DNA of 64,000 nucleotides from Lepidodermella squamata. Taxonomy: Eukaryota; Animalia; Gastrotricha. Numbering within the stretch: position 1 is the stretch's first letter; every line of letters begins with the position of its first letter. The translations under genes were made by a program, and so were the position numbers. The stretch lies in NCBI GenBank assembly GCA_047495785.1, contig JBLDXI010000074.1, forward strand, positions 558,001-622,000, in the 5' to 3' direction. Of the stretch, positions 4,730 through 31,500 are shown in pieces. Under the pieces are notes generated by a model. It did no database searches. It was not told the DNA's origin and worked only from the letters and a program-made list of their open reading frames with translations.

Positions 4730-4807
4730 TTTAGAATATAACCTTCCAAATTGTAGATGAAAATAATCTTCTTCGCTCAATGGTACACATCACATAATAT
4801 CGTCGAG

Positions 4808-8187: not shown

Positions 8188-8358
8188 AGCGTCGTTGAAT
8201 AACTCGGATTTGGGCTTGTATATGTCAGTTACAAGATGAATAGTGACAAGTGAAAGGTAACTGGAACGTTTTTATGTGAATGAAGAGGGGAACTTGTCAC
8301 CCATCAACTGTCTTTAACTGACGTGAACAAGCCCGAATCCGAGTTATTCAACGACGCT
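8188..8358. mobile_element. Foldback MITE nested in the 3.1 kb insertion
   Basis: About 65-bp imperfect inverted arms AGCGTCGTTGAATAACTCGGATT(T/C)GGGCTTGT...GTGACAAGT. Confidence 0.75.
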
Positions 8359-8970: not shown

Positions 8971-9553
8971 CAGTGGTTCTCAAGCTATTTTCGCTCCCGG
9001 TCAAAAATGGCGGCCGGCTGTCGACCTTTCCGGCCGCATTGCCTCTTGAACCCTCAACCGGCCGCTTGTAATGATAAAATAGGACCGTCCCGGCCGCGCG
9101 CCTCTATTCTCTCGATAATTGAAGTTTTCGAGTGCACTTTTAAGCGGATTGGTTATAAAATTAGGGTTTTGAGCAGTGGTTCTTGACTGAATTATTACGC
9201 GACCCCTGATTGGTCATTCAACTGAAGTCGCGACCGACCACTCTCAAAAAGTCAAAACGTGAAAAAAAATTTATGTAATATTTTGGCCAATTAATATTTC
9301 ATAATATAAATATCATAATATAAATTATCGAATTCGAATCGAAAGATATTAAAACATTTGAAAGTGAATCTGCGAGCGGAGCGAGAAACCTTTAAGAAAA
9401 TTGTGGCTATTTATCATTCGGATACATCGAATTTTGCTCACAAATTATGTGACTATTCCCCTCGAAAGAGCCGTCCGGCCGCACACAATGCAAGAGATAG
9501 GCGCGCCTCTTCCGGCCGCATGCGGCCGGAAAAACGGGGTTTGAGAACCACTG
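8971..9553. mobile_element. hAT-type non-autonomous element nested in the insertion
   Basis: TIRs CAGTGGTTCTCAA (8971) / TTGAGAACCACTG (ends 9553); 8-bp near-perfect target duplication CGTCAACC / CGTCAAGC; a second CAGTGGTTCT end near 9175. Confidence 0.8.
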
Positions 9554-10294
9554 CGTCAAGCGATTCCGCTTGTAGTTCAGTTTGGTGCAACAGCTAAACG
9601 GCTCATGTTTATCAAAAGTTGATAAAGCTGTGATCGAAACAGAAAAATATGTGATCGCTTGTTCATGTAACAAAATTTAAGAAAAATTTCTCAAAATATC
9701 TGCGAATGGAGAAGGAACCAAAAAACAGATTTTATCAGGCACCCCTCTGACCAATCACGGTATGACTAACCCCTATTTTTGCCTGCATGCTGTCCACGTG
9801 AACCGAGGCTTGCGGCCGTAAACTTTCTCTTCTTCGTAAACTTTCTGAGAAAATTCTGTTTCGAACCCAGGACCTCTGTGCAACCAGTGTTTCAACAAAT
9901 GGTGATAGTCATGATTCAACTAGACTATACAGAGGTACAGAAAAGTATACTTGAGAATGAACTGTTTTACCCTATGAGTTTACCCTATGGATATTGAGAA
10001 AAATAGATAGAATTATCCTAGACTAAGCTTAAAGGAAACGAAGGTGAAATAAGGAAGAATAGGATAAATTTGGTTGATCTTAAGAATTTAGCCATGATAT
10101 AACGGAGAAATTGTCTGAAGCGTTTGTGCTCAGCACGCATTCTGGTAGGCGTTGCAAACGCACGGTATCGGATGCGCCGCAATAATGATGCTATTACCGA
10201 CGAATACAAAGTAGCTTATACCAGTACCAAGTATTTTATTACCAACAGCATGAAAGTACTGCCAAACGAGGTCTCTTACGTCGCAACACGAACG

Positions 10295-10972
10295 ATACCA
10301 GGATTCACGCATTTGCTGAATCAAACGTTCGTTACTTCCATAACGCGACCAACTTATGACATCGCAGCCTTTGTATCGCCTCATGGTTGGCGCTTCCGCG
10401 ATCAACTTGACAAGTTCAGCGCTTTTGCCGTGAAATATTGCCTTGTCCAAAGGTTTGAACTTGTTTTGAAGCGAGTCTTCACTGACGCTGGCGCCGTTTT
10501 GCAGAAGAAATCGAACAACTTCGATGTGAACACCTCCCATCGCGCCATCTAGCACAGATCGCTTATGATATCCATAGTCGAAATCGGCGGGGAAGTACGT
10601 CTTCACGGCGTCATCACCAGCTACCGAGTTGACTTTAGCCCCATGAGCGACCAGCAGTTTGCAAAGTTCCAAGTTGCCGGTATAAGCTGCATGGTAGAGC
10701 GCTGAATTTTCTTCGTATTCTCGAATGTTCGATTTCTGACCGGACCGGGCGCCGTTTTCCAGTAGATATTTCGCGACTTCGTAGCACCCAAGGCGACAAG
10801 CCTCAACAAGGGCTCTATTTAGAATATCTTGAGCAGGCATTTTGTTACCTGGCTGCTTACTGCGCTCTTGTTCGACAACGCGTTGTAAAGCCGGGAGGTC
10901 TGAATTTTTAACAGCTTTGACCAACTCTTCATAGTCCCTGAGCTTCATAGCAAGCTGATTTAGCATTTCCAT
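10295..10972 (-). CDS. ASB-like paralog B, 5' half (ankyrin repeats)
   Basis: MEMLNQLAMK...ALVEACRLGCYEVAKYLLENGA...QQMRESWY aligns with paralog A 1983-1315. The ORF-track tail RSCCDV... is read-through into the insertion. Confidence 0.85.
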
Positions 10973-11756
10973 TATCGATTGTAACTAGCTTTCTATGTGC
11001 CGACTTGAAAATAAACAATCATCAAAAGTTATGTATTGTCACCGCGAGCGACTTTTTTTGTTACAAAGGTAAGATTGAAGCAGTTGCAAGTGATGAGCTA
11101 TAAACATTTGAAAATAAGGGAACATTATGGAGAATCTTTTTTTCCAGCATGGCAAAATTCAACTATGCTTAGGTACGTGGGAATTTTAAATGACAAATAA
11201 TATGAACAGAAATTAATCGCAAGAGTTTACACAACCTTTAGTTTTACGGTGGCACATGGCGCTTATTTCACGTGCTGCTCAAAAAGCGGTCTTGTCACCA
11301 TTGATTCCCTTCAAATAAAAGTTGGTGTTTGCGTAATAGTTATAATATGCATGGTCCGAGAACTAATCACCAGAAAATGAACGAAATGATGCCGATAATA
11401 TTCTGATTAGTTTCCTTGTCATGGAGAGTTGTGGGCTTCTCTACCGAATGGTCGTTTATTCATCGATTAATTCAAATTTAAAATTCGAAATTCAAATCTT
11501 CGCTTTTGAAACAAAAAGTTTTGAACAAATTTTTAAAAATTAAAAAATTAAAATAAATGCATCCGAAAAAATGTTGCCTTCTGAGGAGTCGAACCAATGC
11601 TCATCAGATCAGACACCGCTTAATGGCGCAAATGACTGACTCGTTGAAAAAATATAGAACAGAGACAAAATCCAGGCGTGACTGGCTCTTTTCTGTAAAT
11701 GCTCGTTTTGCAGGAAGAAAATTTGGATGTGACTTTATTCATCCGACCAATGTCTT

Positions 11757-12667: not shown

Positions 12668-15600
12668 TCACAGCTTTCGTAAAACAATGAAAAAATGGTG
12701 GCAAGTGTTGGCGCACTCATCCGGCGCCGTTCGCAGTTCATGTTTGTAAGCTTCCCACAACATTTCAAACAGCATCTGCTTCTCGTCGCTCGTTCGATTC
12801 GAATCGAGCGCAGAAAAGAACGCGACGTTCACCTCGCGATGCATGATGCTCGCGAATTCGTCAATAAACAGTTCAGTGTTGCCGTGTTGTTGGTAATCCA
12901 TGTAGATGGGGTTATCGCCTGGCAAGCACTGTTCAGAGTGAACGACTTCGAAGCCTAAGCGATCGAACAAAGCTTGGTCCAACACGTCCTCGGGCGAACG
13001 CCAAACTATCGGCATGTTGAAATCGTACAATTCTTGTTCTGTCAACAAGTCGGCATTGGCCAGAGATTGAGCAGCATCATACACCTGTAACAGAAAAATT
13101 AATAAAAAAATTAGAGACGACAATAGCGCAAAAATGTGATTTTTTGCTCAATTGTCTTGATTATGTTCTGCCCACTTTTATTGCGGAAGGTAACGAATTA
13201 AAATTTAAACTCACTACGTCAAATGAAAAGGCGAAGGGCGTCATTTATGCAACGAAAATAGCGCAAATGTTTGTTGCCCATCAAGTGTTTTGCTCAACTG
13301 TCGTGTTTTCAAATAGAGTGAGAAACTCGCGGAAAATTCGGCAAAAATTCTTAAAATGTATATGATAAAACTCACTGCGTCGAACATGAATGGCAGAGTT
13401 TCGTCGTTTGACAGCATTTCAGAGACGAGGACTCCACCGCGGACGAGTTCGGAGCTTCTGGCGGTTAGATAAGCTTCCCAATCTCTGCTAGCCATCTGGT
13501 GAAACGACGCGCGCTCCGACCGGCTGCCGAACATTGAAAAACAGTGATTCGCGATCTTGGCCGGTAGAACTGAGCAGTGTTGCAGAGAGCCAAGCGAGAT
13601 GCCGAGTTGCAACGAGTTCTCGCCAACGCATTTCTCGTAGATGCTGTTGCCTAGGACAACACAGACTTTCATCTAAATTTCTTTCAGGTTAATTATAAAA
13701 AAATGTGTTAAGAATGATTTTGCCAAATAGAAAATTAATCACAATAATTATGATCAAATTCATGATTATAGTGAGTTAAAATATTTAGAAATAAATATTC
13801 CAAGTGCACTTTCATACATATTCATTCTTTTATAAAAAATTAAAATTAAAACTCTCTACGTCAAATGAAAAGGCGAAGGGCGACATTTGAAATTATTTAT
13901 CTATGAAATTTTTAACTTTTCCATAAAATCGTGTTTTTTAGCCAAACTGTGATTAGGAATTGGGGTTAGGGGTTAGGGTTAGGCGCCAGGGTTCGGGTTC
14001 GGGTTCGGGTTAGGTTTAGGGTTTGGTTAGGGTTCAGGATTAAGGTTAGGTTTAGGGTAGTTCGAGTTTCGGGTTTCTACGAAGCTCGATTTTTAGGCCC
14101 TTGCGCTTCCCCAATAACCATTTTCAAGCGGAAAAAATTGACTATGCTTTCGGAACCCCGTTTTTCTTTTACATAAACTGAAAACTAGTCATCTGGCATT
14201 TCCCTAATGTTTTCAGCTTGAATTTAATGAAAAAAAATATGTATGAAATTTAACTTTCTCATACATAAATATGTTTGAAAGTTGGCACCCTAAATAATTT
14301 CAGGTAAACATCGAAATTTTGAAATTTTGCTCGAAATTTTTAATTCGAATTTCAAAAATAAATTGTTCAAATAATTGTGATAAAATGACGGGTCAACAAA
14401 TTCTTATTAGAGTTAATCAAGGTGCGTCATCATCGATCTAGAAGCCCCAAGTCGCGAAAAATCTGGAAAATATCTTGGGATTTTTCGTGCTACTTACTAT
14501 ACAAAATTTCGCCGCATCGCTATAATTATCCGACATTACTCGACTATTTGGCGGCCTCCCTGGCGGTCTCCACTTCAGCGGAAAAATAATTACCAAAAAC
14601 TGAAATTCGAAATGAAAATTTTCTAAATACCAACACGTGCTGTCTAAATAGTTGCTGATACGGTGCACTTTTTCCGAAAAGAATTGGCCACGGCGCGAAC
14701 TTATTTTGTTGGTTTCAAAGTATATACGCTATCTTTTGTGTCCTGGTTTATATGCGTGATATCTATCAGTCGTAGTAGTCCGTTGTATTCCGGTTTTATC
14801 ATGGTAAGATGCGTGACTTTTCCGTCGCTTTTGAAAATTGAAGGCGAAATGACAAAGCAGAATATTTCAGAATAACAATATCAGAACTTTAACATATTAA
14901 TACATATGTTTAGGCAAAGCGAGAAATGGGAGAAAATGCAGCGCAGCGCGCAGCTATTAGCTAAAGGCTATAGCGACTTCATCTGCTAAATCTCCCCCGT
15001 TACGCTAGGTATATCTGATCATTTTTGCCGGATTATCAAACAAACTGAACAAGTCAAGAAAAGTCCCAGCAAGTTAAATCGTTTCAGAGGCCGACCTTCG
15101 GAAAATTATTTGAAAAAGGTTCCCAAATCAGCGACTTTGATTTGATTTCTTCATCAAATCCCAAGTATTTTGAAATCAATCATTTTAAATCGAATCTCCA
15201 AAAATTCAATGGTAAATCAATCAAATCAATCAAATCAATCCAAATCTTTTTCGAAATTCCCTCAAGTTCCCGCTGCTACTTGGGAGTTGTTTCACAAGAT
15301 TTACAGCTGAAGCTATCGATAAAGAAATTCGTTATCACCTTACAAATTGGATATTTATTTCATTTAATATTCATTCAATTTGTTCACGCTGATTACTGAC
15401 ACTGCCGTAGAAGGGGAACACGATTATGGAAATGAAAAAATCGATCGGAAAAAGTGTGATATTTTTTAATGAATCTTGATTGAAAGCATGGGAAACGCGG
15501 GAACAGCCGAATTTTTTATTGTGTGGGAGCGATGTCCCGAAGAGACAAAACCCCCGTTATCGAGGCCTTTATCGTAATACATGTATCCAGGCCTCTCAGT

Positions 15601-16171
15601 AACTTTCCCAGTGATAATGAATTCACCCTTCTGCCCCATGGGTGACAAAACCTCGCCCGTTTTCAAATTGAAGGCTATATATAAGCCAAATTATTGCTGA
15701 GTGGGGACATGTTTTCTGTTTCAAAACATTTCAATTTTGAAATTGAATTTCAGAAATTTCCGAAAAAACTGAGAACGTAACATATATGAGAAAAATACCT
15801 GTTGCTAGGGCTTGAACCTTCAAGCCTCGCGACCTGAGATAAGAATCAGGTTCATTGTACAGGTAGGCGAACAACTCGCTCCAGTTGTTGTGCAGCCAGT
15901 GGTCGTGGATAACCGTCACTGATTTGTTAACGTCAAAATCATAGCGGTTGCGCAGGTGTTCAATCGCCGTCGAAATAGCGGTCGAACTAGCTTCAGGATC
16001 GGGCGTTCCGAAATCAGCCAAGGTCAAGCTGCCGTCGATTCGAGCCGAGTGAGCGTCGATGGCTGTTGCGATAAAAGGCGCCGCGAAGTCGACCAGTTGA
16101 AGGTAAGACTTTGTGATAGCGCTCAGGCCGTTTCGCAACGCTGATGTTTGCTGAGCTGTGATGGGAGCCAT
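12668..16171 (-). CDS. SABATH-family (Methyltransf_7) SAM-dependent methyltransferase-like protein, 3 exons (16171-15799, 13650-13376, 13084-12668)
   Basis: Phase-compatible GT-AG junctions. Motifs in SABATH order: LADFGTPDPEAS, VIHDHWLHNNW, ATGNSIYEKCVGENSLQLGISLGSLQHCS, DWEAYLTARSSELVRGGVLV, FNMPIVWRSPEDV. Confidence 0.8.
13961..14076 (+). repeat. Degenerate interstitial (GGGTTA/GGGTTC)n telomere-like tract in an intron
   Basis: GGGGTTAGGGGTTAGGGTTAGG...GGGTTCGGGTTCGGGTTCGGGTTAGGTTTAGGG; a shorter CTAACCC tract lies near 3690-3718. Confidence 0.75.
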
Positions 16172-16781
16172 TTTTTGTAAAATAATAAAATAAATAGGTC
16201 AGTCGCGAAAAAGTCTGCCGTTTTTATACGTTTTAGACGCGTGTCATGCGTTTATATTTTGCGACCGTTTCAGACATCTGGACTTACTATCGGAATAACA
16301 AGATAACGGCGCAGCATCTGTTAGGATGTCAAGGCTTCAATGATCGGTCTTCAGGCCCAGTTCGCGCTATAAATTATCGCGTGTGTACTGTGTGGTGACC
16401 CAGTTATTTTGTTTTACTTTGTACGCACCCGCCGTGTGTGTGCGTCTGTGATGAGGTCAAATTGCTCAATCGAACGAACTTGATAGTTTCAACGGTTTGC
16501 CTTGAATTACGGTCAGCAAAAAATGTCAACTTTTTCGGAACAGCAGAGCATCCTGTCCTAATTTCGGCCGCTGCGAATAAAATTGTGTAAAATTAACAGA
16601 ATAAGTTTGAAATTTCATGAATGAATTTTTATTCCTTGACACACGCGCAGCTACATCTTTGAACATGATTTTTCACACATTTTTCGACATTTTTAATTAC
16701 CGATAATGTTTGACATACTTAAGCCGAGCGTTTTTAACGAGGCGGTTTTTCGCTTCAACGGTCACGGTTGAAAATTAGCAG

Positions 16782-18104
16782 CGAAAAGTCGGCTACTTTA
16801 ACTGTATGACCCGAATCGAAGCCCTGGTGCCAGGTTTGAGCGACAGTTTGAAGCCAGAAATGCCTGAAGGAGTTTCGGGGAAAGGTTAGGCACTTTGAAA
16901 ATTGAACTTAGTGCTTGGAAAAATTGAAGACTTGTGCTGACGAGGGTACCTGCTAAGAGATGTGGCGATAGAAGAACTTGACTGTTAACGCGCGTTTATC
17001 GATATGAAACACGCCATGGTTGCCGCATCACCCGAGTACCATGGCAAGAAGAAAGTTGTCAGTGTTGCTGAACTGGTGGCAGAGTGTCGGGTAAATTTTA
17101 ATTCAGATTTTAATTCGCTTTTTCCAATTACTGTAAAAGTTGGGTGTTGTCACGGTTTGTCACGTAAAAATGGGCGAATTGTTAAAGGCTTTCAACGCTG
17201 ACAGATGTGCCTTGAAAACGGGCGCAATTCGCCTTATAAATACCGTATTTGTTCCAATAGTAGCCCATCCACTAATAATCGCCCATCCCTAATAGTAGAC
17301 CAGGGTGAGGGGTCAAGCCGGTTCGAAAACAGCAAAAATAAACAATTCGCCAACAATTGTTGTTCAAAATTTCGAGGTTGAAATTCTAGTAGCCCGGGCT
17401 GCTATATGAATACGGCTGATCGCAAAAATGTAATTATTGAAGTTTAATCTTCTATTTATTTAAGAGCACAAATCCCAAAGGTGAGAGCTCAGTAAAAGAA
17501 AGCTTTCTTGAAGTAAACATTAGTAGCTGATAAAAATGAGCAGATCGGTAAAAATGAAAAAAACAATTCGGTGAACGATTGCCCTCTTGATGTAATATTC
17601 GCGAAAATCGATAAATTTTCTGCGAAAAGTTGAAGCAGGTGAAAAATGGTGTACCTGCTCAAGTAAATTCGATGCAAAAGGTTAGTAATTTATTCCAGTC
17701 CGATTTTTATTTTTCAAAAGTTCAATTTTTTTGTATTTTGGATGATGCTTTCGGGCAAAATTAAATTTCAAAGCCAATAAAATTCCCGATGTGAGACCAC
17801 GATACTACAGCATATTTGCAGTTATAGATTAAGGAATTGGATCATTTTTCTTTGATTGCAAATGACCTACAAATTATTAGCGAAAATTGTATACAATTTC
17901 CATTTGTTCCTATTTCAGTTGAGCGGCTACAAGGCTAGCAGTTTGGAAATAATACAGATGATTGCTGCTCCTAACGCTGGTCACAATTATGCGAAGAAAT
18001 ACCGAGCGTTAATCGATTTGATCCGCCGGCCGCCGGCAGTGCATTGCCGACGAGAAGCTCGAAAATCAACGCAGCTCGCACGATCGCATTGTGACGACGA
18101 ATGA
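16782..18104 (+). pseudogene. Putative spliced gene remnant of unknown family (exons about 16782-16884, 16930-17090, 17919-18104)
   Basis: Phase-compatible splice sites and AATAAA directly at the final TGA, but the middle exon has in-frame TGA (16938) and TAA (16986). No recognisable homology. Confidence 0.35.
17243..17415. mobile_element. Short pogo/Tigger-like MITE
   Basis: TA-CCGTATTT...AATACGG termini with internal TAATAGTAGCCC-type repeats. Confidence 0.5.
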
Positions 18105-18297
18105 ATAAAAACTGGAAAATTTGTAAAATAATGCGATAAAACACGACCATTGCAGTTGAAATGAAAAGATTGTACATGCTAATACTGAGAGTCCAATTTT
18201 ACAACAAGAAATGGCTAGCGAGTTGCTGAAAATAAATGAATTTTATCTATAAAAAGCATCGATCCCCCACCTCACCACCTCACCACCTCACCACAGT

Positions 18298-18420
18298 CCG
18301 GGTGTTATCGGGGGACATCGATGGATAGTCATCCTTCAGCCCTCTATTCCGACCTTTGGCTGCGCCTCGGGCCTACATAGCTAGCCTTCAGGCCGATATC
18401 CACCTTAGATAAACACCCGG
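18298..18420. repeat. Small palindromic repeat element
   Basis: CCGGGTGTTATC ... GATAAACACCCGG inverted ends. Confidence 0.5.
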
Positions 18421-18920
18421 AAAATATATAATATAGATATTTAGATTAAAAGATATTGAGTAAACCCTTCAAATTTGTCGATGTCCCATTATTTCGCGTT
18501 AAAAAAGTGATACGCGCATTATTTATTTGCCAGCAGAACATTCATGTGTAACGAGTAGTATATTTATGCGACGATGCGATAACGAGACAATATACGCAAA
18601 AATTTTCTGACACCGCAGGTTTTTCTGTTTGCGAAAAGTTTAATATAAGTCATTAATGTCAAATTATATGAACTTTTTGTGCAAACAAGCCGGTAATTTT
18701 TCTCAATATTTTAGCGACGTTCATATGGAATTTCAACAAACACGCCGATGACGACTCGCCTCTGCCGTTGTGATATTATTCATTGAGTTCATCGGTATTC
18801 GAAACCAAGTGAACGCTAGTGTGAACAGTTCGCGGAGGGTTCCCTGGGAACGCCTATAAATTAAAAAGACTGCGCAGCAAATTATCACAAATATTCTTTC
18901 TATTCAATTTTCTTTCCAAT

Positions 18921-19252
18921 ATGAACAAGATCATCCTTCTAGAAGTATCTTGTGGTGGTAAATTTCTCACTTGGACAATAGCTCTGTTAGTTTGATACCC
19001 TTTAACTTTTAACAGGCTTTCGCCGCTGTGTTGGCTGTTTCAGCACTCGAGGATACGGCTCGTGAGGCTGCCTACGAAGAGGAGGTAGCTCGTGCAGACA
19101 GGAAGCACAAGGATGAGGCTGGCCATAAGACACACCACGGCATACAGCATGGCATAAATGGGCATAACTGGCTGTATGGCAAGACGAATGAAACACTCGA
19201 GGCCACTGGTAGAATTTGCCCTCCTAAATGTTGCCCTCCTCCAAATTGTTGA
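18921..19252 (+). pseudogene. Secreted Cys-peptide precursor copy 1 (exon 1 apparently frameshifted; exon 2 19016-19252 intact, ends GR-ICPPKCCPPPNC)
   Basis: Homologous to copies 2 and 3 over promoter, exons, intron and 3'UTR. Exon 1 has AGAAGTA in place of CAC (+4 nt), which shifts the shared donor to phase 1. Confidence 0.65.
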
Positions 19253-20338
19253 ACAAATTCCGCGCATATGATTAGGATCTGTCATTGCCCTACAATCAGA
19301 GTGCTGAGACTTCAACACGATGAGAGAGAAGATAATCATATATTATTAATATTTATTATGATATTATATGAGAAATATACATTAAACATGTATATGTTAT
19401 CTTTGCGGAAAATGATACCTTTGACTATTAAGACTAGATAGATAAATAAACGGCAGAATATGAATAAGCCTTCCTTTCGCCATCTCGAAATTCGGTATAA
19501 GCATGGCTCTACCCTGTAAAAAGTCTTCTGCGGTATCTAAGCTATGTATTCGATAAAAAAAACACACCAACCAGTGGTTAGAAGCTCCAGTCACATGTTT
19601 GCATATTTGTCATAATTTTTTGTTCATGTAACGTGGCGTGGGGTATAACTTGGCCATAAAAGTCGCCTTTTGGTCGATTTCACGCCGAGAAAAACTGTTT
19701 TCACGAAATTTTTCATATACATAAGAACATTCCTTGCCACCTGAGCTACAACTGATAACTTAAACTTTGATCGAAACCACAACAAATAATCCAGATAAAA
19801 CCAATTCTTTTTCTGCAGAACTTTAAAGATGAAAAATTGAAGAGTATAATCCACTTTTTTACGGTGGTGGTTTGAAAAAACCCTTTTTGGACTGCACAGA
19901 AACTTTTGAAGACGATTAACTATAACAAAGCATTGTAAAGGCTTTCCTAGCCTCTGCTTGGAACCAGTCCCATACACACGTCAGCGCGAAAAAATCGAAA
20001 ATGATCACTGATGGGGTGAATCTGTGGTGAAATTTGACCAAAATTTACAAGCTGCTCGCAGATTTAGTGAACTTATTACTTTGACGTTAGCCATATTCAT
20101 TTCGTGGGGCAACTTATTTATCGCAAATGCCAAGCGAATCGCGGGCCAGGGCAGGAAGTTTCACAGCGTGGTTTCGGCGCAGCAACAACTTGTGGCAGAG
20201 GTTGAGCAAAAAATCGCGCTGAGCCAAGCAATAAGGTAATACTCAATGGCTAGGTAGCAATGGTGAAATATAGCATTCGCTCAAAAAATATAGGGTTAGT
20301 GCCCATGCTCATGCAATATTTGTATGGTATGACATGAG

Positions 20339-20688
20339 TAAAACGTTTATATCTGTACGGAGCCGCCCGAGATTTACGAGTCGTGACGAGCCGGAGGCGA
20401 GTTACGAAGAGTAAATCGAGTGCGGCGAGTTCAGATATGAACGTTTTACGAATGTTATACCGTAAAATATCGAATTGTCAAAGCTACTCGACCTATATTT
20501 CTGGGGACAATTCTATATTTCACGATACAGCACTCGTAATTCATTCATATCTGGATTCTCCGCACTCGCTACGAATCTCAGATATAAATAAATTACTCGT
20601 ACTATATCATACAAATATAGAATTGTCCCCAGAAATATAGGTCGAGTAGCTTTGACAATTCGATATTTTACGGTATAACATTCGTAAA
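20339..20688. mobile_element. Compound foldback element
   Basis: Essentially perfect ~76-bp inverted arms TTTACGAATGTTATACCGTAAAATATCG...TTCTATATTT (20445 to 20688), abutting a second hairpin AAAACGTTTATATCTG...CAGATATGAACGTTTT. Confidence 0.8.
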
Positions 20689-21084
20689 TCGGCAAGTCGT
20701 CTCCTTAGATCGATAGAACGCGCCGGGAACACTGAGCAGAAAATCCAGAAAATCGGACAGCATTTTGACCCCAATTCGCAGAAATCACCACCTTGAAACT
20801 TGATTGAACTTGGAGCACTCTGCCAGCGACAGTTCCGATTCGATCACGTTGAAACCATCGACGTACCAAACACCGTTGCGACGCGCTAATCCGAAACTGA
20901 GCCATTTTCAACAACCAGAGATGAAATTCCGACGGACTGCTTGACCTTCTTTCATCGCCACCAAACGTGTCGTTCAAATCGAACCAGTGTCTTGTCGAAC
21001 AGAAAGCAAAATGCCTTTATAAATGTCTATGGATTAATCTGGAACACGGAAGGTTCCCGAATCACGGAATGTTCTGGAAGCCTT

Positions 21085-21800
21085 AATTCTGACAGTACTC
21101 TGCGCCTAGCTGTTGGCTACCGCGAGTTAAATCGCATTACGATTTGAAAACAGCTAGGTGCCAATTGCCACTGATCCCCGAAATTATACTGAAAAAACTA
21201 TTCGACCGCATTGGCAAGGCAAACATCCTGACGCGTCTCGATATAACAAACGCCTACAATTTGCTTCGCACTCGAGAGGGAGATGAGTGGAAGATCGCTT
21301 TCAAAATACGGTCTATTCGAGCAACTTTTGGCAAGGTCAACGCCCAGCGGCATTTCAAATGAATTTCAGAAGTTTTTTGCGGCATGATTGACATTAGTGT
21401 TGTAATTTATCTTGATGCCATTTATCTTGAGTCTTTGGCCGAACACGAAGTGCATATCGAACAAGTTCTGCAGAGATTCTCAACATCGAAATCGTACTTG
21501 TTAATCTTTGCTTTTCTCATTCGACCATATGGCAGACTTAAGCACCTAGTCAAATTGATTTGCTACGGGCCTGAAGACAAAACCTGGGCACCTGTTTGCA
21601 ACGCCGCGAATTCGTCCGACGTAGAAAGCCGAATTTCAGTACAAGTACCAGAAAAAGCCTGTACAAAGTCGCATTTATTGCTCCAAGCGGCGCGCTCCAA
21701 GAAGAGGCATATGGTGTAAGGATCGAGTACGCGTTTCCAACTACCACAGCTGTTAAGCTTTGTCGTGCAGACCTTCACGTCATAAAATATCAATAGTTGG
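21085..21800 (+). mobile_element. Degenerate Ty3/Gypsy chromovirus-type LTR retrotransposon remnant (RT fragment, chromodomain, PPT/3' LTR start)
   Basis: Frameshifted RT motifs LRLAVGYRELNRIT, LPLI, LDITNAYNLLRTREGDEWKIAFKIR, VVIYLD..HEVHIEQVLQR; then GRLKHLVKLICYGPEDKTWAP (chromodomain-like); purine tract AAGAAGAGG followed by TGTAAGG at 21715. Confidence 0.8.
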
Positions 21801-22356
21801 CGAATCACACGAAAAACTTTGATGGTCAGGCCTGGGCAAGACTGAGCTGCAAATTTCCATTCTTTCGTTTCAAATACGAACGAGAGCTTCCTTCTGATCT
21901 TGCTTCTGATCTTCTAATCTTCTGATTATTTTATTTTTTTAAATCGAGCATCAGCGTGTAGCGTCAATGCGGCGATGCATTTCTTGGGTCTGGTAGGTGA
22001 ATATTGTGGGCGCTGGTGAATCAACAAAACAACAAGGGATCATCAGATGTCTAGACATATACATCATAATGTTATATAAAAAAAATGTTGTGCAAACAAG
22101 CCGCTAACATTTTTCTTAATATTTTAGCGATGTTCATACGGAATTTCAACAAACACGCCGATACCGACTAGCCTCTGTCATTGTGATATCATTCACTGAG
22201 TGCATCGGTATCCCTAAGCACGTGTATTCGCCTCGTAATAAACGTGATCGCTGGTATGAACAGTTGGTGGATGTATCCCTGGGAAAGCCTTTAAATTAGC
22301 GAAACTGAGCTGACATTTTCACGACAATTCTTCAATTTTCAATTTTACTGTCAAAT

Positions 22357-22745
22357 ATGAACAAGATCATTCTTCTCACTCTTGTGGTGGTAGGTTTCAC
22401 GCTTGGACCATAGCTCTGTTCGTATTATACCCCTTCATTTAACAGGCTTTCGTCGCTGTGCTGACTGTATCAGCTCTCGAGAACAACGCCGATACGGCGC
22501 GCGAGGCTGACTTCGAAGAGGAGGCAGCCCGCGGGGACAGGCATCGCAAGGATGAGGCTGGCCAAATCCACAGCGGAAATCATGGCAAAAGTGGCAAACA
22601 TAGCAGGCTATACGGACAGAAGAACGAAACCCTGATCGTATCTGCTCGTGATGGCGATTACGTACAAAAGTATGACGCGAATGGCGTCCCAGTGTGTTGT
22701 CCATATGTGTGCCCCCCAGTTTGTTGTATTCCCTCAGATTGTTGA
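22357..22745 (+). CDS. Secreted Cys-peptide precursor copy 2 (exons 22357-22389, 22446-22745)
   Basis: MNKIILLTLVV|AFVAVLTVSA-LENNADTAR-EADFEEEAAR-GDRHRKDEAGQIHSGNHGKSGKHSRLYGQKNETLIVSAR-DGDYVQKYDANGVPVCCPYVCPPVCCIPSDC*; 56-nt phase-0 GT-AG intron. Confidence 0.85.
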
Positions 22746-23064
22746 ACACATTCCGCATCTGCTATTGCCCTTCAATTGGAGTGCCGAGACTTCAACATGA
22801 TGCGAGAGAAGATGATAATATATGTTGATGATGATATTATATTTAAAATCAACCAATAATATATGGGACATATTTTACTTGCGGACAATTTGTGGTGATT
22901 CTTTGACTAAGACTAAAAGCTACTCGTATATGGATTATGGAACTAACCAGATACGTAATAAAATGATCCGATTTAAAGAGCTTAACATTTTAAGTTCGGG
23001 AAACTCAAGGGAAAATTTGCTAGCTTATTAGCAACATAACAAGCTACGGCGTCAAGAGTGCTAT

Positions 23065-23330
23065 TCAGCCAGCATCTATGCAGCTGTTAGGCGACTTCTA
23101 ATTATATTCGGCACCATTCAGCACTTGATTCGGCTTGTTATAATTTTACTGAGCACAAAATAGTTCGTTCATGATAAGATTCAATAAGATTCAATTTTTT
23201 CGGATTTTTCGGCACTCAATTCGGCACCGTACCGCACCTATTTTCTTTTTGTACTTACTACGGCACCTTTTCAGCATCACGTTCGGCAATCCATACTCCG
23301 CACTTTCCGCAGGGAGTTCCGCACAGAATT
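23065..23330 (+). repeat. Degenerate TTC(G/A/C)GCAC motif array
   Basis: Repeated TTCGGCAC/TTCAGCAC/TTCCGCAC with irregular short spacing. Confidence 0.5.
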
Positions 23331-24474
23331 TTATTTGAGTAATTTTTTAAGAATATCAGAGATTCATTTTCTGTGAAATAAATGTGATAGCAATTCTTTA
23401 GCGTTTTGTTCCGCAATGCAAGCTATCGCTCAAGTGTGTTCGAAAAACCTGCTGAAATTCAGAACTTGTTTTTGGCTCGTCAATCACTAACCACAAATTC
23501 GAATTCAGTCGATTCGTCACCCATTCAGCGCCCAATTCCGCAATAATCGCGCAGAATGTTTGCACATTTAGCTTCTTCCTTATCGGAGCTTCATGTTAAA
23601 AGTTGAATTCATGACTGGGGCAATGGTTACTCGCGACTCGCGATAATGGCCGAATGAAAAAACTAGTACTATAAAAACGTCATTTCGTAGCAAAAATGTC
23701 CTAATATACTACTTTTTCTCACTCCTCAAAAAATAAAGTGAAAAAGTTGCTCAAGTTTTTATTCACAATTTTTCCGGTCTTGGTAGCGTCAACATTCGAG
23801 TTTTTATTCAAGTCCGTCATCGTCCGATCATCAACACATGATTTTCATATATATATAATATAAGCCGAGAGAGGGAAAGAACTGCGTTAAAAAGATTTCT
23901 TCATCTCGAGAGAACGCCGTGATACAACGTATAAGATAAAACAGTCATCATCGTATTAGCATATAAATTATTTCAAACCGATATCGATCTAAAAAAATCA
24001 TTGGTTAATTAACGAATTTCGTCATCGCATAGCGATATATTATAATGCACAAACTAAAAAGCTAACAACTACAGGTTTCATCGTTGCCGATATCGAAGAA
24101 GAAGAAGAGAAAAACCCTTGAAATACAGCCATCATAATAGCAGTATCGTTGTTTTCATTTTTCACAAAGGCAGGCTATATAAAAACGATAGCGAGAGAAG
24201 AGGTGAGAGAATAGGAAGAAAGAAAAAAATCCACTGTTTTATCGCACAATACGATGTATTAATTTTTTGCATATTTTTAATTTATACAGGTAATTTAACA
24301 ATAATTTCGTAGAAAATCAAATGGTGATGAATAGGTATTATAGTAGTAATAAAAAAAGAGGAAGTTTTTTTCATCGAAAAATTGTAATGCTGCGTAACTT
24401 TTTACAGGTGTGTTGTTGTGTCTGTGTGTTAAATTAATTAATTACAAAAAATGAGCCGATGTTTTTCTTATTTG

Positions 24475-27400
24475 TTACTCGAGCCACACCTGGGTCAATC
24501 GGTGGCTGCTGTTCGCGTTTTGCACTGAAACTTTCTGCATGAGTGAGCTCAGTTCGGCGAGGCATGAATCGTAGTCGAAACGGTCGTCCTGTTGCGTGGC
24601 GCTAAGATTCGCCGTCGACGGCGTGCCGTGGACGCTGTTAACCGGCGTCGAGTCGGTCAGATTGCTGACGCGGCGAATCGCACGGCTGACTGAACTCTGG
24701 AACGACAAATCGCTGGCCTCGTGGTCCGATTCGGACGACTCGAAGCCGTTCGACCGTGACGATAGGCCGGTGCGCGCCGGTGATGCGTAGCAGTTGGAGC
24801 CCTGCAGCACGACCTCGTCCATTTCTTCGTCGAAGAAGTAGTCGTCGGTCTCGTCCTCCTCGTTGTCGCTGTCGTCGCTGTCGGCGCCGTCGAGCAGGTC
24901 GTCGGATGACTGTGACGAGGCGGTGAGCGGGCGGCCGAGGCCGATCAGCAGGCGGTTGGCGTTCAGCATCGTCGCGCTGTGCGGCACGTCGCTGAGCGAG
25001 GAGTACGACGAGTCGACGCCGTTCGACGTCGACACGATGACGGAGGAGGTTGGCGAGGAGAGGGCGGACGACGACGGGTACGAGGCCGGCGAGGCGGGGT
25101 GCGGCGGCACGGGGGGAACAACCGTCGGACGGTGACTAGCTCGGACCGGGTCGGTGTCGCGCGCCTCGAAGAATCCTTCGACCACCGAACTATTGCAAAT
25201 CTAAAATGAGACAAAAGTGAACAAATAAAAATTATTCGACGAGTCTGGAAGAAAATCAAAAGCGGAACCAAATATGCATTTTGCCGAACCCTGAAATCTA
25301 GAAAATTCCAAAATTTGGTTTCGCTACAGCATACAGTTGGTTGCGGTTATAGGAGAAAAGACCGAAGAATAGACTTAAACCATCGCGTTACACCATGTCA
25401 TTCTCGTCATTACCCTAGGAGTGCGCATATACTCGTCATGTAATTTTTTTGCTAATAAGCAGTAAGATTTTTTTGCGGGTCGCATGTGTTCGCAGAAAGA
25501 AATCGCATACACCTACCAGTTGACAAACTGATTTCTTTTTTCCTCGTATGTAATTTCTGATCAAAGAGGCCAATCAAAAAAATGGCCAACTTTGACGGGG
25601 CTCGAACCCCGTCCGCCTGTTGAACAGGCCAGTATAATAGCAACTGCACCATGTTGCCATCTAAACTGGCCGATACTTGGCTGCTAAAGCCATTCGTGTT
25701 TTCTGGGTCAAACGCGGGCATGAGTCATGATATTTGACCTAATTGCTGGCAAGCTTCAGGGCATTTTTTGCCTTAAAACCTAATTTATAGGTCACACATT
25801 AAGCTTGACGGCTTAGCCAAGTCGATTAATTATCGATGTTTGTGAGAGCGTCCAGGGTTCGTCTCAACGTGCCGCCATCGCTTTTTTCGACGACCTGACG
25901 GAGCAAAAAGAAATTAAATACGAGGAAAAAAGAAATCAGTTTGTGAGCTGGTGTGTATGCGATTCGCTGTGTGCGTATGTTTTTCCTCGTATGCGTAAGA
26001 AAAAAAATATAAACGAGTTTGTGCGAGAACCTTCTCATCCTGTTAACATGAAAGAAATCCCATTCAAAGATGAAATTCTAATCAACTAGAGAATGAAAAA
26101 CCTGCCAAATTTGTTCCGCCAAATTTGCCCTATACGTCATTTTGTCTTATAATTCATCATAATTGAATTTTTTGTGCAAACAAGCCGCTAATTTTTTCCT
26201 AAATATTTTAACGATGTTCATATGGAATTTTAACAAACGCGCCTATGCCACCTCGCCTCTGTCATATATCATCCACTGAGTGCATCGGTATCTCAAGCCA
26301 CGTGAACGCAAGTTTGAACAGTTGGCGGAGGTATCCCTGGGCAAGCCTTTAAATTAGCGAAACTGAGCTGAAATTTCCACGACAATTCTTATTTCCATTT
26401 TTTCTCTCGAATATGAACAAGATCATTCTTCTCACTCTTGTGGTGGTAAGGTTTTTGCATGCGCCTCTGTTCGTTTGATACCCTTTCATTTAACAGGCTT
26501 TCGCCGCTGTGCTGGCTGTATCAGCCCACGAGGATACGGCGCGTGAGGCTGCCTACGAAGAGGAGGCAGCTCGTGCAGACAGGCATCGCAAGGAGTCTGG
26601 CCATAAGCCACACCGCAGCGGAAATCATGGCAAACATAACAGGCTTCACGGCAAGAAGAATGAAACACACGTTGAAGCTGCTCGAGAATGCCCCCCAATG
26701 TGCTGTGTCCCCCCAGATTGCTAAATTAATTCCGCGCATTCGATCAGCATCTGCTATTGCCCTTCAATTGGAGCGCTGAGACTTCAACACGATGAGAGAG
26801 ATGATTATCATATGATGATGATGATGATGTTATAAATAAAATCAAAATAGAAAATACAGCATATTTTTACTGAATGGTTTCTTGATATGTATGCATAATT
26901 AAATTCTTGAATGTTTTCAGTACCCCGAAATTATGATGACCCTGATAATAAAGGATTAGATTTTGACCTCAGAAAGCCTTTCAGATAAGTGAACTCTTGG
27001 CGTCTTAGCCTACAAAAGATATACTAATGTTGAAAAATTCGGAACAATTCGAATAAATTGAAATTGAAATTGAAGTTTTCTCTACTTAGCTGCCGTTTCC
27101 TTCCAAACTGGAAGTAAGGCCTTATTGGATTTACAGATTTGTGCCGCTATAATTTAGGTTTGATTAGGTTAGATAGATTACGCCTAGCGATGTCCTACAA
27201 ATCACAGCCTATATCGATTTCAAGTGTTTACCAATCGCTAATTTTTTCCGATATCAGCAGTCTTGGAACATAAATTTTTAAGCTTCCTACGTACAGCTAG
27301 CAAACAGATCCTAGAATTTCGGGGGCCCAATTATTCATCAAGAGAGGAAAAAGCCGAAAACAGCAAATAATGGGAAAAATTCATTATACAGCGTTTTTCA

Positions 27401-28579
27401 TAAGTAACGCAAATAACGAAATGCACTGATAATGGATCAGAATGTCTAAATTGAGACTCGAAGCCGCATCTCAAGGCCAGAAAAGTTTCAAGTTCCAAAT
27501 GCCATGAATTTGACACTTGTCAATGGGAATAAAAAAATGCCGAAAAATGTGGTCCAAACGGGTGAAATACTGAAAATGACCAAACCAGTTACCAGCAGGT
27601 TTTTTTCCGGTAAATTTGTTATTTCTTCGGATAATGGATGGAGGATGCTACCGTTAGGTTACATTCAAAAATAAATAAATTTCACATTAAATAATCGCAA
27701 AATTATATAAACTGATTTATGGGAAACGCTTTCGAACCTAGAATTTGAGGGTTGAAATATTTAGCCCGAAAAAACGTAAGGAATTCGAATTTTTAAGTTT
27801 TCTCGTTTAAACAGCTGAACTTTTATTCAAGCTGAAATGTTTTTTTCTATCTCTCATGAACTACATTTCGTAATTTTTCTAGAAATTTCTGAAAATTTCC
27901 CGTTTCTACGGTTTTGTTATGGGATGATAATGTGTACACTAACCTCTTCCGGCAAATCGAGTAAGTGTTTCAGCCATCGATCGAGCACCAACTCGAGCTG
28001 TTCAGCAGCTTCGTGGCTCGCCGCATCCGCATCACACGCGAGCGGCGCCGGCGGCACAACATCGGCCTGTTTCCGCCGCCGGCTGAACAGCGACCACGAA
28101 CTCGTCGCGGCCGAATGCGCCGACGCGGCGCCGTTGGTGCGATGCGCCGACAACTTGGCCGCCTCTTCCGCAGCCAGCGGCACAAATTTGCGCCCGTTAT
28201 CCAGCCGGCCCTTGAAAGACCTCAGCAACTCGGCCTGGAAGTGAAGAAAATCAGCGTACGACCGCCTGATATACCGCCGCTCGCCGCCCGACCAGCTCAC
28301 TTCGATGACGAACTCGAACATCTGATCCGAGTTGTTGCCGTTGTTGTTGTTGCAACTCGCGTTGTTCGCCTTTTTGTTAGATGGCGACAGCGCCTTGGAC
28401 GGCTTGTCGTGTTGCACCTGCACGAAGCCGGTTACGGTGGCGGTTTGCAGCGAGCTGTTGCAGAAGCACAGCTCGTGAGCGGCGGCGATCGGGCGCCGCG
28501 ATGCCGCGTTGGCGCCGCTGTACGCGATGCCCGTGTTCTCGACATCGCTGCTGCCGCTGTTCGACGACGTTTTGCCCAC
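24475..28579 (-). CDS. PX-domain protein (NCF1/SH3PXD2/PXDC1-like PX, no SH3 seen) with Ser/acidic tail; exons ~28579-27944 and 25200-24475
   Basis: PX motifs ATVTGF, FEFVIEVSWS..RYIRRSYADFLHFQAELLRSF. The phase-0 splice gives LLDLPEE|ICNSSVVEGFFEAR, matching the PX C-terminal helix. Start codon uncertain. Confidence 0.8.
25583..25658 (-). other. tRNA-like sequence (tRNA pseudogene or SINE head) with oligo-T terminator
   Basis: GGCAACATGGTGCAGTTGC...GCCTGTTCAACAGGC.GACGGGGTTCGAGCCCCGTC..GTTGGCCA followed by T7. A-box-like and B-box motifs present; anticodon arm non-canonical. Confidence 0.5.
26413..26724 (+). CDS. Secreted Cys-peptide precursor copy 3 (exons 26413-26445, 26497-26724), nested antisense in the PX gene intron
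   Basis: MNKIILLTLVV|AFAAVLAVSA-HEDTAR-EAAYEEEAAR-ADRHRKESGHKPHRSGNHGKHNRLHGKKNETHVEAAR-ECPPMCCVPPDC*; GTAAG donor, 51-nt intron, AATAAA near 26835. Confidence 0.88.
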
Positions 28580-31500
28580 CGTTTTCGAGCCGAGATTGGG
28601 GTGTAGAAAGATGAATCAGTGAAGCTAATGATAAGCCCTGGGTCCAGAGCTTCTTGTCGCGATTATTTCATGTAATAACAACGCGTCTCCGGCACTGCAG
28701 CGGGAAACCGGAATAAATCAAATAATCAACAATTTCTATATCAAAAAATTAAATTTCAAATGTTGACCAGAAGAAGAAAATCACGAGTCAGTCCAGCATG
28801 GGCTAAAATTCAAAAATATTGCGGAAAATGCATTTTCATGTGGAATGGGAAATTCAGAATTATTCTGATTTTCACCTAGTTTTGAATATTATTGTCCAAA
28901 TTTCATTTTTGACCCGGTTTCGAAGATTTCTGAGCAATAAAAATTGGAATGACCTAAATTTTTGAAAGGGAGGTTAAAGTTGTAAAAATCAAGGTATCTA
29001 CAAAATTATTACTAGAATTTAAGAAGATTTCTGGAGTTCAGAAACTTCAAACATTTTACTAGACATTTTAGTGGAGTTTAAACAAAAATTATAGGTAAAA
29101 GGACATATTTCCTAAATTTCTTAACAATTTTTTCTAAAAAAATGAAATTAAGGTGGGAAAGGTTCAAATAACGTATCATTTGAGTTCCCAGGGATAAACG
29201 CTTCGGAAATAAAATTTTACAAGCTCGTTTGAAGCTATTTTTCAGCTTTCAAGCTTAGGAATTAATCATAGTTAACGTCAATTTCGATTTGACCCTTGTG
29301 AATTCCGAAATTTCAATAGGTTTAATGAATTAAAAAAAATCCTTGAAAAGAAGTTGGTAGAAATTGTTGTTAACTCTAACGAAACGGCTTTTCAGTTTTC
29401 TGTGTAAATACTTGTTAGGTTTTGTGGGACAAAAGAAGGTCAAGGCGGGAAGTAGAACGGTAAACGGTGCCAAACAAAGCCTAATTATCAGGTCGGAGAA
29501 ATCTCTCTCTCCATGCTCAAATTAAGCTCAAACACACAGTAAATTAAGGGGGTTAGAGTCAATAAAAAGTGCGCGATAACTTTTCATACCTATTATAGCA
29601 CACGAAAAGGATATATGTATATACCCTTTTCAAAAACACATCCGCAACACAAGAAAGTCAGTCACCCTACTATGTAGCCGCCAATGTAACAGCTATGTGT
29701 TGACGTTGCCCGCGTAAAAGAACAAGCGTGTTTACATTCGTCGCGCTTTTCCGCGTATTACATTACCATGTTGCGCTCGCAGTGTTATATAATACTTATA
29801 TTTCCTCGTCAAAAACTCGCGCGTAAAAACTTGTATATAGTCATTATCGCGCGCCAAAAAGTGAAACGCGCGCTTTTACCAAGTTCCGCTGTGATGGTCA
29901 ACTTTGTTATACTTACAGCTATAAAAATGGCCGCAAACAATAACAACGGCTCGCGCTACACGGGTTATCGCGCACCTTGAAATTTAGAATCATATATCGC
30001 GAGTGAAATATATGGGAAAATTTTTATAAGCCAAAGCCAGTGATTATCGCTTGTTTTTCAGTGCTAAACATGACCTTTCGTGTTTTTTGGCAGCAAAAAA
30101 TTCAATTGAAAAAAAAACAATTTTCAAATTATACCTTTTCACGTATTTTGTAATTGCTACCCACATACTTGTCAATGATAATAAATAAAAAATTAGCCCA
30201 TGAAATTTTTTTTGTGTATTTGATACTCTTGCCACACAAAAAAAGTATAAGTAAACAATACTAGTGAACAAGTGCTAACTAGCCGCAAAGCTATTATTAT
30301 GGGGATTTTTTTTCAAGATGGACTGTTAACAGGTGTGCGCACCTAATGTAGACGTACCGGCCGGCATTTGTCAGTCAATTTGATATGATTCTTATCCCAG
30401 CCGAGCTCGTTATACACATTTTACGAATAATTAAAAAGCCGAGGCACATAATGTACGGATATTATCTGTAATTGAGCTGCGTATATCATCAGTTAATGGA
30501 GGTGGACTAAGATGGATAACAAGCTTGAGATTTCATTCACAAGCGTGGACAATGGACAAGCATTAAAAAATTATCAAGCTAAAATTCGTCTCGAGTTGAA
30601 ATTTTAAACAAATTTGCATTAGCTGATAACTCTTAATTATGCAGCCGAAAGGCCATGAAAATTCGGAAAAACGGAGCGCACGGTGAGAACAAGAAAGGAA
30701 AGATTTAATTCTCTGAAAAATTGCGAGAATGATCGCACAAAATTAGTAAAAAAAATCGAAGCACGGCATGCTACGTCAGAGTTTAATAATTAATTACAAC
30801 CAAGGGAATGCGAAAAATAAAAAATTTCAAATAATCAATTTATTGGTGGGGAACCTGTTTTCCCCCCATGGTGTGGTGAACGAGTCAAGGTGAATAATTC
30901 TGGAATAATCCTTTTTGCTTGGATGTGGTGTAATAAATTAAGGCGAAAATAATTCCTTGTTTGATGCGCAATGACTGTTCTATCCTGGGTAAAAAAAACG
31001 CATATTAGCGATTCAGCGTGTCGCGCGCACAAAGTTAACTGGACCTTGACAAAATTTGCGAGTGCGCGGCGGGATGATTAAAAGGCGCGTGTCGCATGCG
31101 CGCACAAACTGGGTCAGGTGATAATAATGCAGTATATCTATAACCTATTCTTCTTCAAATACTGGCGTTGAAATGGTGAAAAATTTTCCGGTTAAAAAGG
31201 CCTCTATAAACAATAATAATAATAATAATAATAACAATACCTATATGGAAAATTAATATGCACGTCGACCGCGACTATTTAGCAGCCAACGCCTAGTTTA
31301 AATCATCATCAAGATTATTTCAGCGTAGAATAAATAGCTCGTAATTATGATATAAACACCACCAGCGATATATATACCATACATCGCAGTATTATATTCA
31401 GACGAAAATTATAGGCAGCACAATACTGAACGGTTCTTTCCACTCGAGACATTTCAACTGTTGACATCTGCCCGCTTAAAACTCAGGTGTATAAAAACTG

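What the first reader, a model, noticed from the sequence alone, without database searches (positions are those of the whole stretch)
18921..26724. Three-gene family of toxin-like polyprotein precursors ending in a tiny Pro/Cys-rich peptide
Each gene encodes a near-invariant signal peptide, an acidic pro-region with repeated monobasic sites (DTAR, EEEAAR, EAAR/VSAR/ATGR), a His/Gly/Lys-rich cationic segment with a conserved NET sequon, and a C-terminal peptide. The monobasic sites recall the ExxR processing motif of spider-venom precursors. The peptides are ICPPKCCPPPNC, ECPPMCCVPPDC and DGDYVQKYDANGVPVCCPYVCPPVCCIPSDC. Cys counts are even (4, 4, 6): framework C-x3-CC-x4-C, extended by a further CC-x3 in copy 2. 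The architecture is typical of venom and antimicrobial precursors, and I do not recognise the family. One precursor could release both a metal-binding or antimicrobial His-rich peptide and a disulfide-locked mini-peptide. This is the best candidate for an undescribed system in the window.
Basis: partly seen in the sequence, partly recalled or inferred. Interest (0 to 1): 0.85.

Follow-up and report, generated by a model that had tools for sequence, protein, structure and literature searches.

The report
Orphan secreted multi-peptide precursor gene family
Three copies (one broken) of a transcribed gene family of an unidentified invertebrate encode small secreted precursors that are likely cut into a histidine-rich peptide and a tiny cysteine-rich peptide, likely for chemical defence; the searches run here found no relative, and no activity has been tested.

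Summary
The three genes are real: two exons each, + strand, one shared ~700-nt cassette. Copies 2 and 3 are intact and match contigs of a spliced RNA run base for base. Run contigs show at least three more members. No homologue was found in 5.8 billion proteins, 1.84 billion representatives, Pfam, PDB, JGI metagenome or viral contigs, or in the paper searches. Layout: 21-residue signal, acidic linker bounded by Arg, basic His/Gly/Lys segment with a conserved N-glycosylation sequon, then C-x3-CC-x4-C. The linker fits the spider iPQM-PQM definition in 3 of 3 copies; the site before the Cys peptide fits in only 1 of 3. Mature parts diverge faster than signal and linker, but pN stays below pS. The basic segment is too hydrophilic for a membrane-lytic peptide. 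Best reading: gland-secreted polyprotein, probably defensive (about 0.4); a structural or adhesive secretion is a close rival (0.3). Processing, tissue and activity are untested, and the host lineage is unplaced. The scan had not noted this family on other DNA.

The parts
18669..19369 (+). Copy 1 cassette (about 250 nt upstream, gene, start of 3' UTR): stretch homologous to copies 2 and 3
   Evidence: blastn; alignment
18921..18957 (+). Copy 1 exon 1, 37 nt to the homologous donor: out of frame with exon 2; probable pseudogene
   Evidence: DNA contig identical over 18780-19037
19016..19252 (+). Copy 1 exon 2 (open frame, 78 codons): linker, basic segment 19094-19213, terminal peptide ICPPKCCPPPNC 19214-19249
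22357..22389 (+). Copy 2 exon 1 (11 codons, first half of the predicted signal peptide)
22390..22445 (+). Copy 2 intron, 56 nt, phase 0, GT..AG
   Evidence: an RNA contig's match begins at 22445 with 31 letters left over
22446..22745 (+). Copy 2 exon 2; precursor 110 aa; basic segment 22533-22649; six-Cys terminal peptide of 31 aa, 22650-22742
   Evidence: RNA contig identical over 22445-22941
26348..26353 (+). TATA-like box (TTTAAA) about 30 nt before the inferred start of copy 3; the equivalent in copy 1 reads TATAAA
   Evidence: sequence; start site
26379..26412 (+). Copy 3 5' UTR; start inferred from a cDNA adapter joined directly to sequence matching 26379 onward (copy 3 or a close paralogue); no spliced leader
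   Evidence: loose ends; the adapter's identity is recalled
26413..26445 (+). Copy 3 exon 1 (identical to copy 2 exon 1)
26446..26496 (+). Copy 3 intron, 51 nt, phase 0, GT..AG
   Evidence: an RNA contig (probably a paralogue) skips these 51 nt
26497..26724 (+). Copy 3 exon 2; precursor 86 aa; basic segment 26575-26685; terminal peptide ECPPMCCVPPDC 26686-26721
   Evidence: RNA contig identical over 26509-26714
25201..27943 (-). Intron of a PX-domain gene on the opposite strand that holds copy 3 (context, not part of the family)
   Evidence: one RNA contig joins 24731-25200 to 27944-28699; PX match

Best explanation
These are members of a spliced, transcribed, multi-copy family of small precursor genes (copy 1 frameshifted) whose products are predicted to be secreted and are likely cut after Ala/Gly-Arg into a His-rich basic peptide and a disulfide-bonded Pro/Cys mini-peptide that likely serve the animal's chemical defence. 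Steps: (1) shown: gene structure, transcription of copies 2 and 3 and of further paralogues; (2) inferred from sequence: a 21-residue signal ending at VSA, N-glycosylation at NET; (3) inferred by analogy with spider complex precursors: the acidic linker masks the basic segment in the secretory pathway, and an Arg-specific protease cuts at three sites, giving a 37-40-residue peptide and a 12- or 31-residue peptide with 2 or 3 disulfides; (4) guessed: the His-rich piece binds metal or polyanionic microbial surfaces without lysing membranes, and the Cys peptide is a rigid ligand or protease-resistant effector; (5) inferred: the family turns over by duplication of a self-contained cassette and loss (birth and death).
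For: Expression: RNA contigs identical to copy 2 (497 nt) and copy 3 (206 nt), spliced joints at the family's intron, zero depth in several neighbouring intergenic and intronic bins. Regular sites: 8 of the 17 Arg in the three exon-2 products follow Ala; 7 of the 9 xAR/xGR sites fit PQM or iPQM. Linker of 11 residues from Arg to Arg, net -3 to -4, as defined for Cupiennius linkers of 11-13 residues (passages of PMC7889660). Signal+linker 86-92% identical against 69-80% for the mature part (Fisher p 0.002, 0.0002, 0.011); mature part below non-coding DNA in all three pairs, significant in one (p 0.0016, 0.078, 0.18). Paralogues keep the linker and change what follows it (loose ends). A broken copy beside an intact expressed sister. 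Cys and the PP pair invariant.
Against: No processing, tissue or activity data. pN is below pS in every mature block (Cys peptide 0.14-0.26 against 0.46-1.0), so no sign of positive selection; the three pairs are not independent and the blocks are short. The site before the Cys peptide fits PQM in 1 of 3; a Glu-rich stretch ending in Arg fits PQM easily by chance. The basic segments are hydrophilic (GRAVY -1.5 to -2.2, hydrophobic fraction 0.14-0.23) and carry a conserved glycosylation sequon, which suits a spacer as well as an active peptide. Two of three Cys peptides are acidic and have few variable positions. Conserved pre-pro plus variable Cys peptide did not mean toxicity in MgCRP-I. Host lineage and diet unknown.
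Confidence: 0.42

Rival explanations
1. A structural or adhesive gland secretion: only the acidic front part is removed; the His/Gly/Lys segment binds metal or polyanions and the Pro/Cys tail cross-links chains by disulfides (cuticle, egg coat, mucus, glue or its releaser).
For: Copy 2 holds C-x3-C-x3-CC, the last four Cys of the minicollagen pattern (passage of PMC4195985); minicollagens too have a charged propeptide that blocks cross-linking (passage of PMC4863159). Gly, Arg, Lys, His and Ser make up 45-62% of the basic segments (counted by hand), the residues of the flatworm cohesive protein Tmed-ap3 (passage of PMC9229212). Purifying selection, the conserved sequon and very high summed RNA depth over the linker fit a bulk secretion.
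Against: An Arg is invariant directly before the Cys peptide in 3 of 3 although its neighbours vary, which suits a cut that would separate the two parts. No collagen repeats; 86-110 aa against 3700 aa for Tmed-ap3; a single small Cys block; faster divergence of the mature part.
Confidence: 0.3
2. A signal between individuals or cells (pheromone, seminal or mating peptide, or neuropeptide-like): the same processing, but the Cys peptide acts on a receptor of the same species.
For: Acidic spacers, monobasic sites and a short constrained C-terminal peptide are common in signalling precursors (general knowledge). Lineage restriction and fast turnover fit reproductive peptides. A conserved Arg-Lys pair near the start of the basic segment could be a convertase site.
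Against: None of the 9 xAR/xGR sites has a basic residue at P4, P6 or P8 (the convertase rule is recalled); no amidation Gly; neuropeptide genes rarely form large volatile families (general knowledge).
Confidence: 0.18
3. A prey-capture venom in the strict sense: pharyngeal or salivary gland peptides acting on ion channels or receptors of prey.
For: The C-PPx-CC-x4-C spacing also lies inside conotoxins GS and TVIIA (appendix passage of PMC7281422); spider-type linker.
Against: In those toxins the motif is the inner part of a six-Cys knot whose outer Cys are absent here; no positive selection; no evidence that the animal is a predator.
Confidence: 0.1

Closest known systems
Spider complex precursors of linear peptides (cupiennins; iPQM-PQM linkers; PMC7889660, PMC6832493, passages read)
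   Same: Signal, anionic part, cationic peptide; an 11-residue Arg-to-Arg linker with iPQM at the start and PQM at the end in 3 of 3 copies.
   Different: Cationic segment is His/Gly-rich, hydrophilic and carries a sequon; last site fits PQM in 1 of 3; ends in a Cys mini-peptide; no sequence homology; the host does not look like a spider (51-58-nt introns; eIF6 not grouped with the one named spider or the insects in a quick tree).
MgCRP-I of Mytilus (PMC4558851; abstract and section 16 read)
   Same: Lineage-restricted family, conserved acidic pre-pro region, variable Cys-rich mature peptide, pseudogenes, function unknown.
   Different: MgCRP-I has C-C-CC-C-C, 25-38 residues, a dibasic KR/RR site, positive selection and low expression; no His-rich segment.
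Conotoxins GS and TVIIA (six-Cys knot; PMC7281422 appendix passage) and alphaB-VxXXIVA (C-CC-C; PMC3559828 passages)
   Same: GS/TVIIA contain C-PPx-CC-x4-C; VxXXIVA has the same Cys order C-CC-C.
   Different: GS/TVIIA have two further Cys that complete the knot; VxXXIVA has loops of 15 and 11 residues in 40 aa and no pro region; no signal or pro-region homology.
Minicollagen cysteine-rich domain (PMC4195985, PMC4863159, passages)
   Same: CXXX spacing ending in CC (4 of 6 Cys in copy 2, 3 of 6 in copies 1 and 3); charged propeptide.
   Different: Full pattern absent, an extra Cys after CC, no collagen repeats, one Cys block only.
Flatworm cohesive proteins with the GRKHS motif (PMC9229212, passages)
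   Same: Secreted, basic, rich in the same five residues.
   Different: 3700 aa and 88% of those residues, against 37-40 aa and 45-62%.

Membership tests
Spider complex precursors (iPQM/PQM) | Anionic linker from Arg to Arg with iPQM at the start and PQM at the end | tested here: met
   3 of 3 copies; definition
Spider complex precursors (iPQM/PQM) | PQM before each mature peptide | tested here: not met
   Before the basic segment 3 of 3; before the Cys peptide 1 of 3
Spider complex precursors (iPQM/PQM) | Mature peptides are cationic and hydrophobic enough to be membrane-active | tested here: not met
   GRAVY -1.5 to -2.2, hydrophobic fraction 0.14-0.23; criterion from general knowledge
Spider complex precursors (iPQM/PQM) | Venom-gland expression and cleavage by a PQM protease | not testable with these tools
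   Only assembled contigs of one RNA run without tissue record
Inhibitor cystine knot / conotoxin framework VI/VII | Six Cys as C-C-CC-C-C | tested here: not met
   C-CC-C (copies 1, 3) and CC-C-CC-C (copy 2); no PDB or Pfam match
Conotoxin B3 superfamily (framework XXIV) | Cys order C-CC-C | tested here: met
   Copies 1 and 3
Conotoxin B3 superfamily (framework XXIV) | Superfamily signal sequence, no pro region, 40-residue peptide | tested here: not met
   Compared by eye with the precursor printed
Minicollagens | CXXXCXXXCXXXCXXXCC domains flanking collagen repeats | tested here: not met
   Pattern; sequences; no collagen family in Pfam
MgCRP-I | C-C-CC-C-C array after a dibasic KR/RR site | tested here: not met
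Neuropeptide precursors | Convertase-type sites around the products, often amidation Gly | tested here: not met
   0 of 9 xAR/xGR sites with a basic residue at P4, P6 or P8; no terminal Gly; rule recalled
Secreted prepropeptide multigene families (general kind) | Signal peptide, conserved pre-pro region, faster-diverging mature region, several copies with pseudogenes | tested here: met
   signal judged by hydropathy and the small-residue rule, not SignalP
Secreted prepropeptide multigene families (general kind) | Proteolytic release of the mature peptides | not testable with these tools
   Needs peptidomics

The most novel reading that the evidence does not exclude
An animal outside the arachnids has independently evolved a spider-type iPQM/PQM polyprotein system: a large, abundantly expressed gene family that ships combinatorial cargo behind one acidic linker, including a 12-residue, two-disulfide C-x3-CC-x4-C bioactive scaffold not found in the searches run here. 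It would point to an unrecognised venom or defence gland in this lineage.
Probability: 0.2. Interest if true: 0.8.

Novelty: new variant of a known kind. Interest (0 to 1): 0.52.

Why it matters
The review passages read (PMC6832493) call unambiguous PQM sites rare outside spiders. A confirmed second origin, with two unlike products in one precursor, would show convergence in peptide maturation and give a very small, easily synthesised disulfide scaffold to test. If the structural rival is right, it is a compact candidate for a metal- and disulfide-set secretion. If neither activity is found, it is one more orphan secreted family like MgCRP-I.

Tried and rejected
No whole genome is held, so family size could not be counted. 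Homologue searches: 7 candidates, none with E <= 10 among proteins of 55-175 aa (longer and shorter forms not searched with this tool; query was copy 2 exon 2 only). HMMER over 1.84 billion representatives gave 7 hits at E <= 0.001, all long repeat proteins (541-2544 aa; beta-propeller or Ig-like repeats in most) matching 28-45 residues around the junction of copy 2 through 3-8 summed stretches, none reaching the terminal Cys motif: rejected as chance. Pfam: nothing above cut-off. PDB by sequence: 0 in three searches. AlphaFold2 on the 31-residue copy 2 peptide alone: pLDDT 72, pTM 0.35, a hairpin in the first 18 residues; Foldseek best E 5.5, uninformative. JGI metagenome contigs: 0 of 589 pattern matches confirmed, 0 exact matches to an exon 1 pattern; viral contigs 0 of 250. 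Papers: five peptide strings found one real match (TVIIA) among 3 papers listed; topic searches (listings and abstract starts only unless cited) showed no description of this family; subscription papers and supplements were not searched. Host placement: eIF6 is 72-84% alike to many animals; the quick tree (careful search unfinished; 111 rows, proteins over 330 aa left out, no named nematode, flatworm or rotifer among the rows) gave it one unnamed partner; DOP1 gave two distant hits. Not placed. No listed run is on record as RNA; X1 is treated as RNA because of its spliced joints. Assembly error as the cause of the copy 1 break: not supported. An upstream in-phase GT in copy 1 is non-consensus and no listed RNA joint uses it; one contig of depth 3 runs through it unspliced, which is weak evidence.
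Full report
Observation. The window holds three related genes on the + strand, with ATGs at 18921, 22357 and 26413. They share a cassette of about 590-770 nt at 74-78% identity that runs from about 250 nt upstream to about 100 nt past the stop. Each has a short GT..AG intron inside the signal peptide. Copies 2 and 3 give 110 and 86 aa. In copy 1 exon 1 is 37 nt instead of 33, and exon 2 is out of frame, with a stop after 15 codons. A DNA contig of run X2 is identical over 18780-19037, so the break is in the DNA, although X2 may be the window's source. The terminal motif C-x3-CC-x4-C-stop occurs three times; 60 shuffles gave one in total.

Expression. Run X1 behaves as RNA: one contig joins two exons of the neighbouring PX-domain gene, others skip the family's intron, and several intergenic and intronic bins have no depth. 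Contigs are identical to copy 2 over 22445-22941 and to copy 3 over 26509-26714. A cDNA adapter (identity recalled) abuts sequence matching 26379, about 30 nt after a TATA-like box. For copy 1 only two contigs of depth about 3 match exactly, one of them chimeric; all listed spliced joints come from genes with an in-frame exon 1. One X1 contig differs from copy 1 at three listed coding positions (two residue changes; 27 of its 28 differences are listed) and strongly in the 3' UTR; X2 holds the matching second gene. So ICPPKCCPPPNC is probably made from an intact sister gene, not from copy 1.

Family size. Besides the sister, loose ends show members that continue after the linker with an acidic-then-Lys-rich stretch, or with a short Lys-rich stretch running straight into the KKNE motif, and one with another xTAR site after the signal: at least three further members. 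Summed depth over the linker bin 19068-19091 is 59,243 in X1 (116-474 in most other coding bins) and 3,094 in X2 (about 41 in unique flanks). The tool warns that these sums are neither copy number nor expression level. I take them only as a hint that the linker is widely shared, in many genes or repeated within some, and abundant in RNA.

Anatomy. A 21-residue signal (basic start, hydrophobic core, ends VSA; judged by hydropathy; SignalP not available); a short acidic piece to DTAR; a 10-residue linker of net -3 to -4 ending EExAR; a 37-40-residue segment with 4-7 His, net +1 to +6, NET in 3 of 3; an invariant Arg; then the Cys peptide. Copy 2's peptide has 19 extra residues at its front, with two more Cys.

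Processing motif. PMC6832493 (passages) defines PQM as Arg with Glu in the three positions before it and iPQM as the mirror image, and says unambiguous PQMs are rare outside spiders. PMC7889660 (passages) defines linkers as Arg-to-Arg pieces of 11-13 residues with both motifs. The linker here fits in 3 of 3; 7 of 9 xAR/xGR sites fit one motif; the last site fits in 1 of 3. A Glu-rich piece fits easily, so this is a lead, not proof. The common rule here is rather small residue-Ala/Gly-Arg.

Evolution. Signal+linker are 86-92% identical, non-coding parts 80-85%, mature parts 69-80%. Mature against signal+linker is significant in all three pairs; mature against non-coding in one of three. Synonymous differences are raised as well, and pN < pS throughout: constraint on Cys and Pro, no evidence of positive selection; the samples are tiny and the pairs not independent. 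Copy 3 lies in an intron of the PX gene, copies 1 and 2 beyond that gene's 3' end, with no host exon duplicated, so the cassette has spread by more than simple tandem duplication.

Homologues. None in any protein, structure or contig collection searched; limits are under Tried and rejected. Small eukaryotic two-exon genes are poorly represented in these sets, so the blank is expected for an orphan family and says little about related species.

Mechanism. I commit to a gland-secreted polyprotein cut by an Arg-specific protease, with the acidic linker masking the basic segment until release. I put processing of that kind at about 0.75 and a defensive role overall at about 0.42. The basic segment is not a lytic peptide; metal or polyanion binding is the plausible activity (inference). 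The structural or adhesive rival stays close (0.3): minicollagen-like Cys spacing, composition like flatworm cohesive protein, purifying selection. Signalling (0.18) and true venom (0.1) follow.

Comparison. It works like the conserved-pre-pro, variable-mature families of venoms and defence secretions, and is a member of none tested. The inner C-PPx-CC-x4-C of conotoxins GS and TVIIA matches in spacing, but the knot's outer Cys are missing. VxXXIVA shares only the Cys order. MgCRP-I is the best precedent and a warning: toxin-like layout, no activity found.

Verdict. A real, expressed, apparently undescribed family; a new variant of a known kind of precursor; function open. Interest 0.52. Paper supplements were not read and could hold the family as unannotated transcripts.

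Noticed in passing
window 17500-29500: In DNA run X2, long contigs identical to the flanks of the three peptide genes have depth 36-48, while contigs over the PX gene's exons and 3' end have about 80 and differ from the window by 1-3%. Either the peptide-gene stretches lie on one haplotype only (presence/absence variation) or the PX gene has near-identical extra copies. Depth is not copy number.
   Followed up: partly
window 19131-19255: Copy 1 and its sister collapse into one X2 contig (depth 78) over the end of the coding region but diverge sharply in promoter and 3' UTR: possible gene conversion between a broken and an intact copy.
   Followed up: partly
window 23839-28699 (-): PX-domain gene, transcribed and spliced, with copy 3 nested antisense in its intron.
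   Followed up: partly
window 20260-20691: High-copy element with 79-nt inverted arms, 99% complementary (X2 depth over 20,000): MITE-like, between copies 1 and 2.
   Followed up: no
window 20890-21719 (+): Decayed reverse-transcriptase fragment (RVT_1, E 0.006), probably an LTR-retrotransposon remnant.
   Followed up: no
window 25501-25964: Another repeated element with 44-58-nt inverted ends just upstream of copy 3.
   Followed up: no
window 12668-16198 (-): SAM-dependent carboxyl methyltransferase (Methyltransf_7, E 7e-8), a family best known from plants (recalled), in an animal; origin not examined.
   Followed up: no
window 44396-47811 (-): Gene with at least six Kunitz domains joined by Pro/Thr linkers and an unassigned upstream exon.
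   Followed up: no
window 5688-10984 (-) and 41147-41869 (+): Three ankyrin-repeat ORFs, one ending in a SOCS box.
   Followed up: no
window 43199-44099 (+), 52236-55448 (-), 58286-63579 (-): Housekeeping genes: eIF6 with three 52-53-nt introns, an RSB-motif protein, DOP1.
   Followed up: partly
window 3861-4789 (-): ORF with a signal-like start and several Cys, no Pfam match.
   Followed up: no
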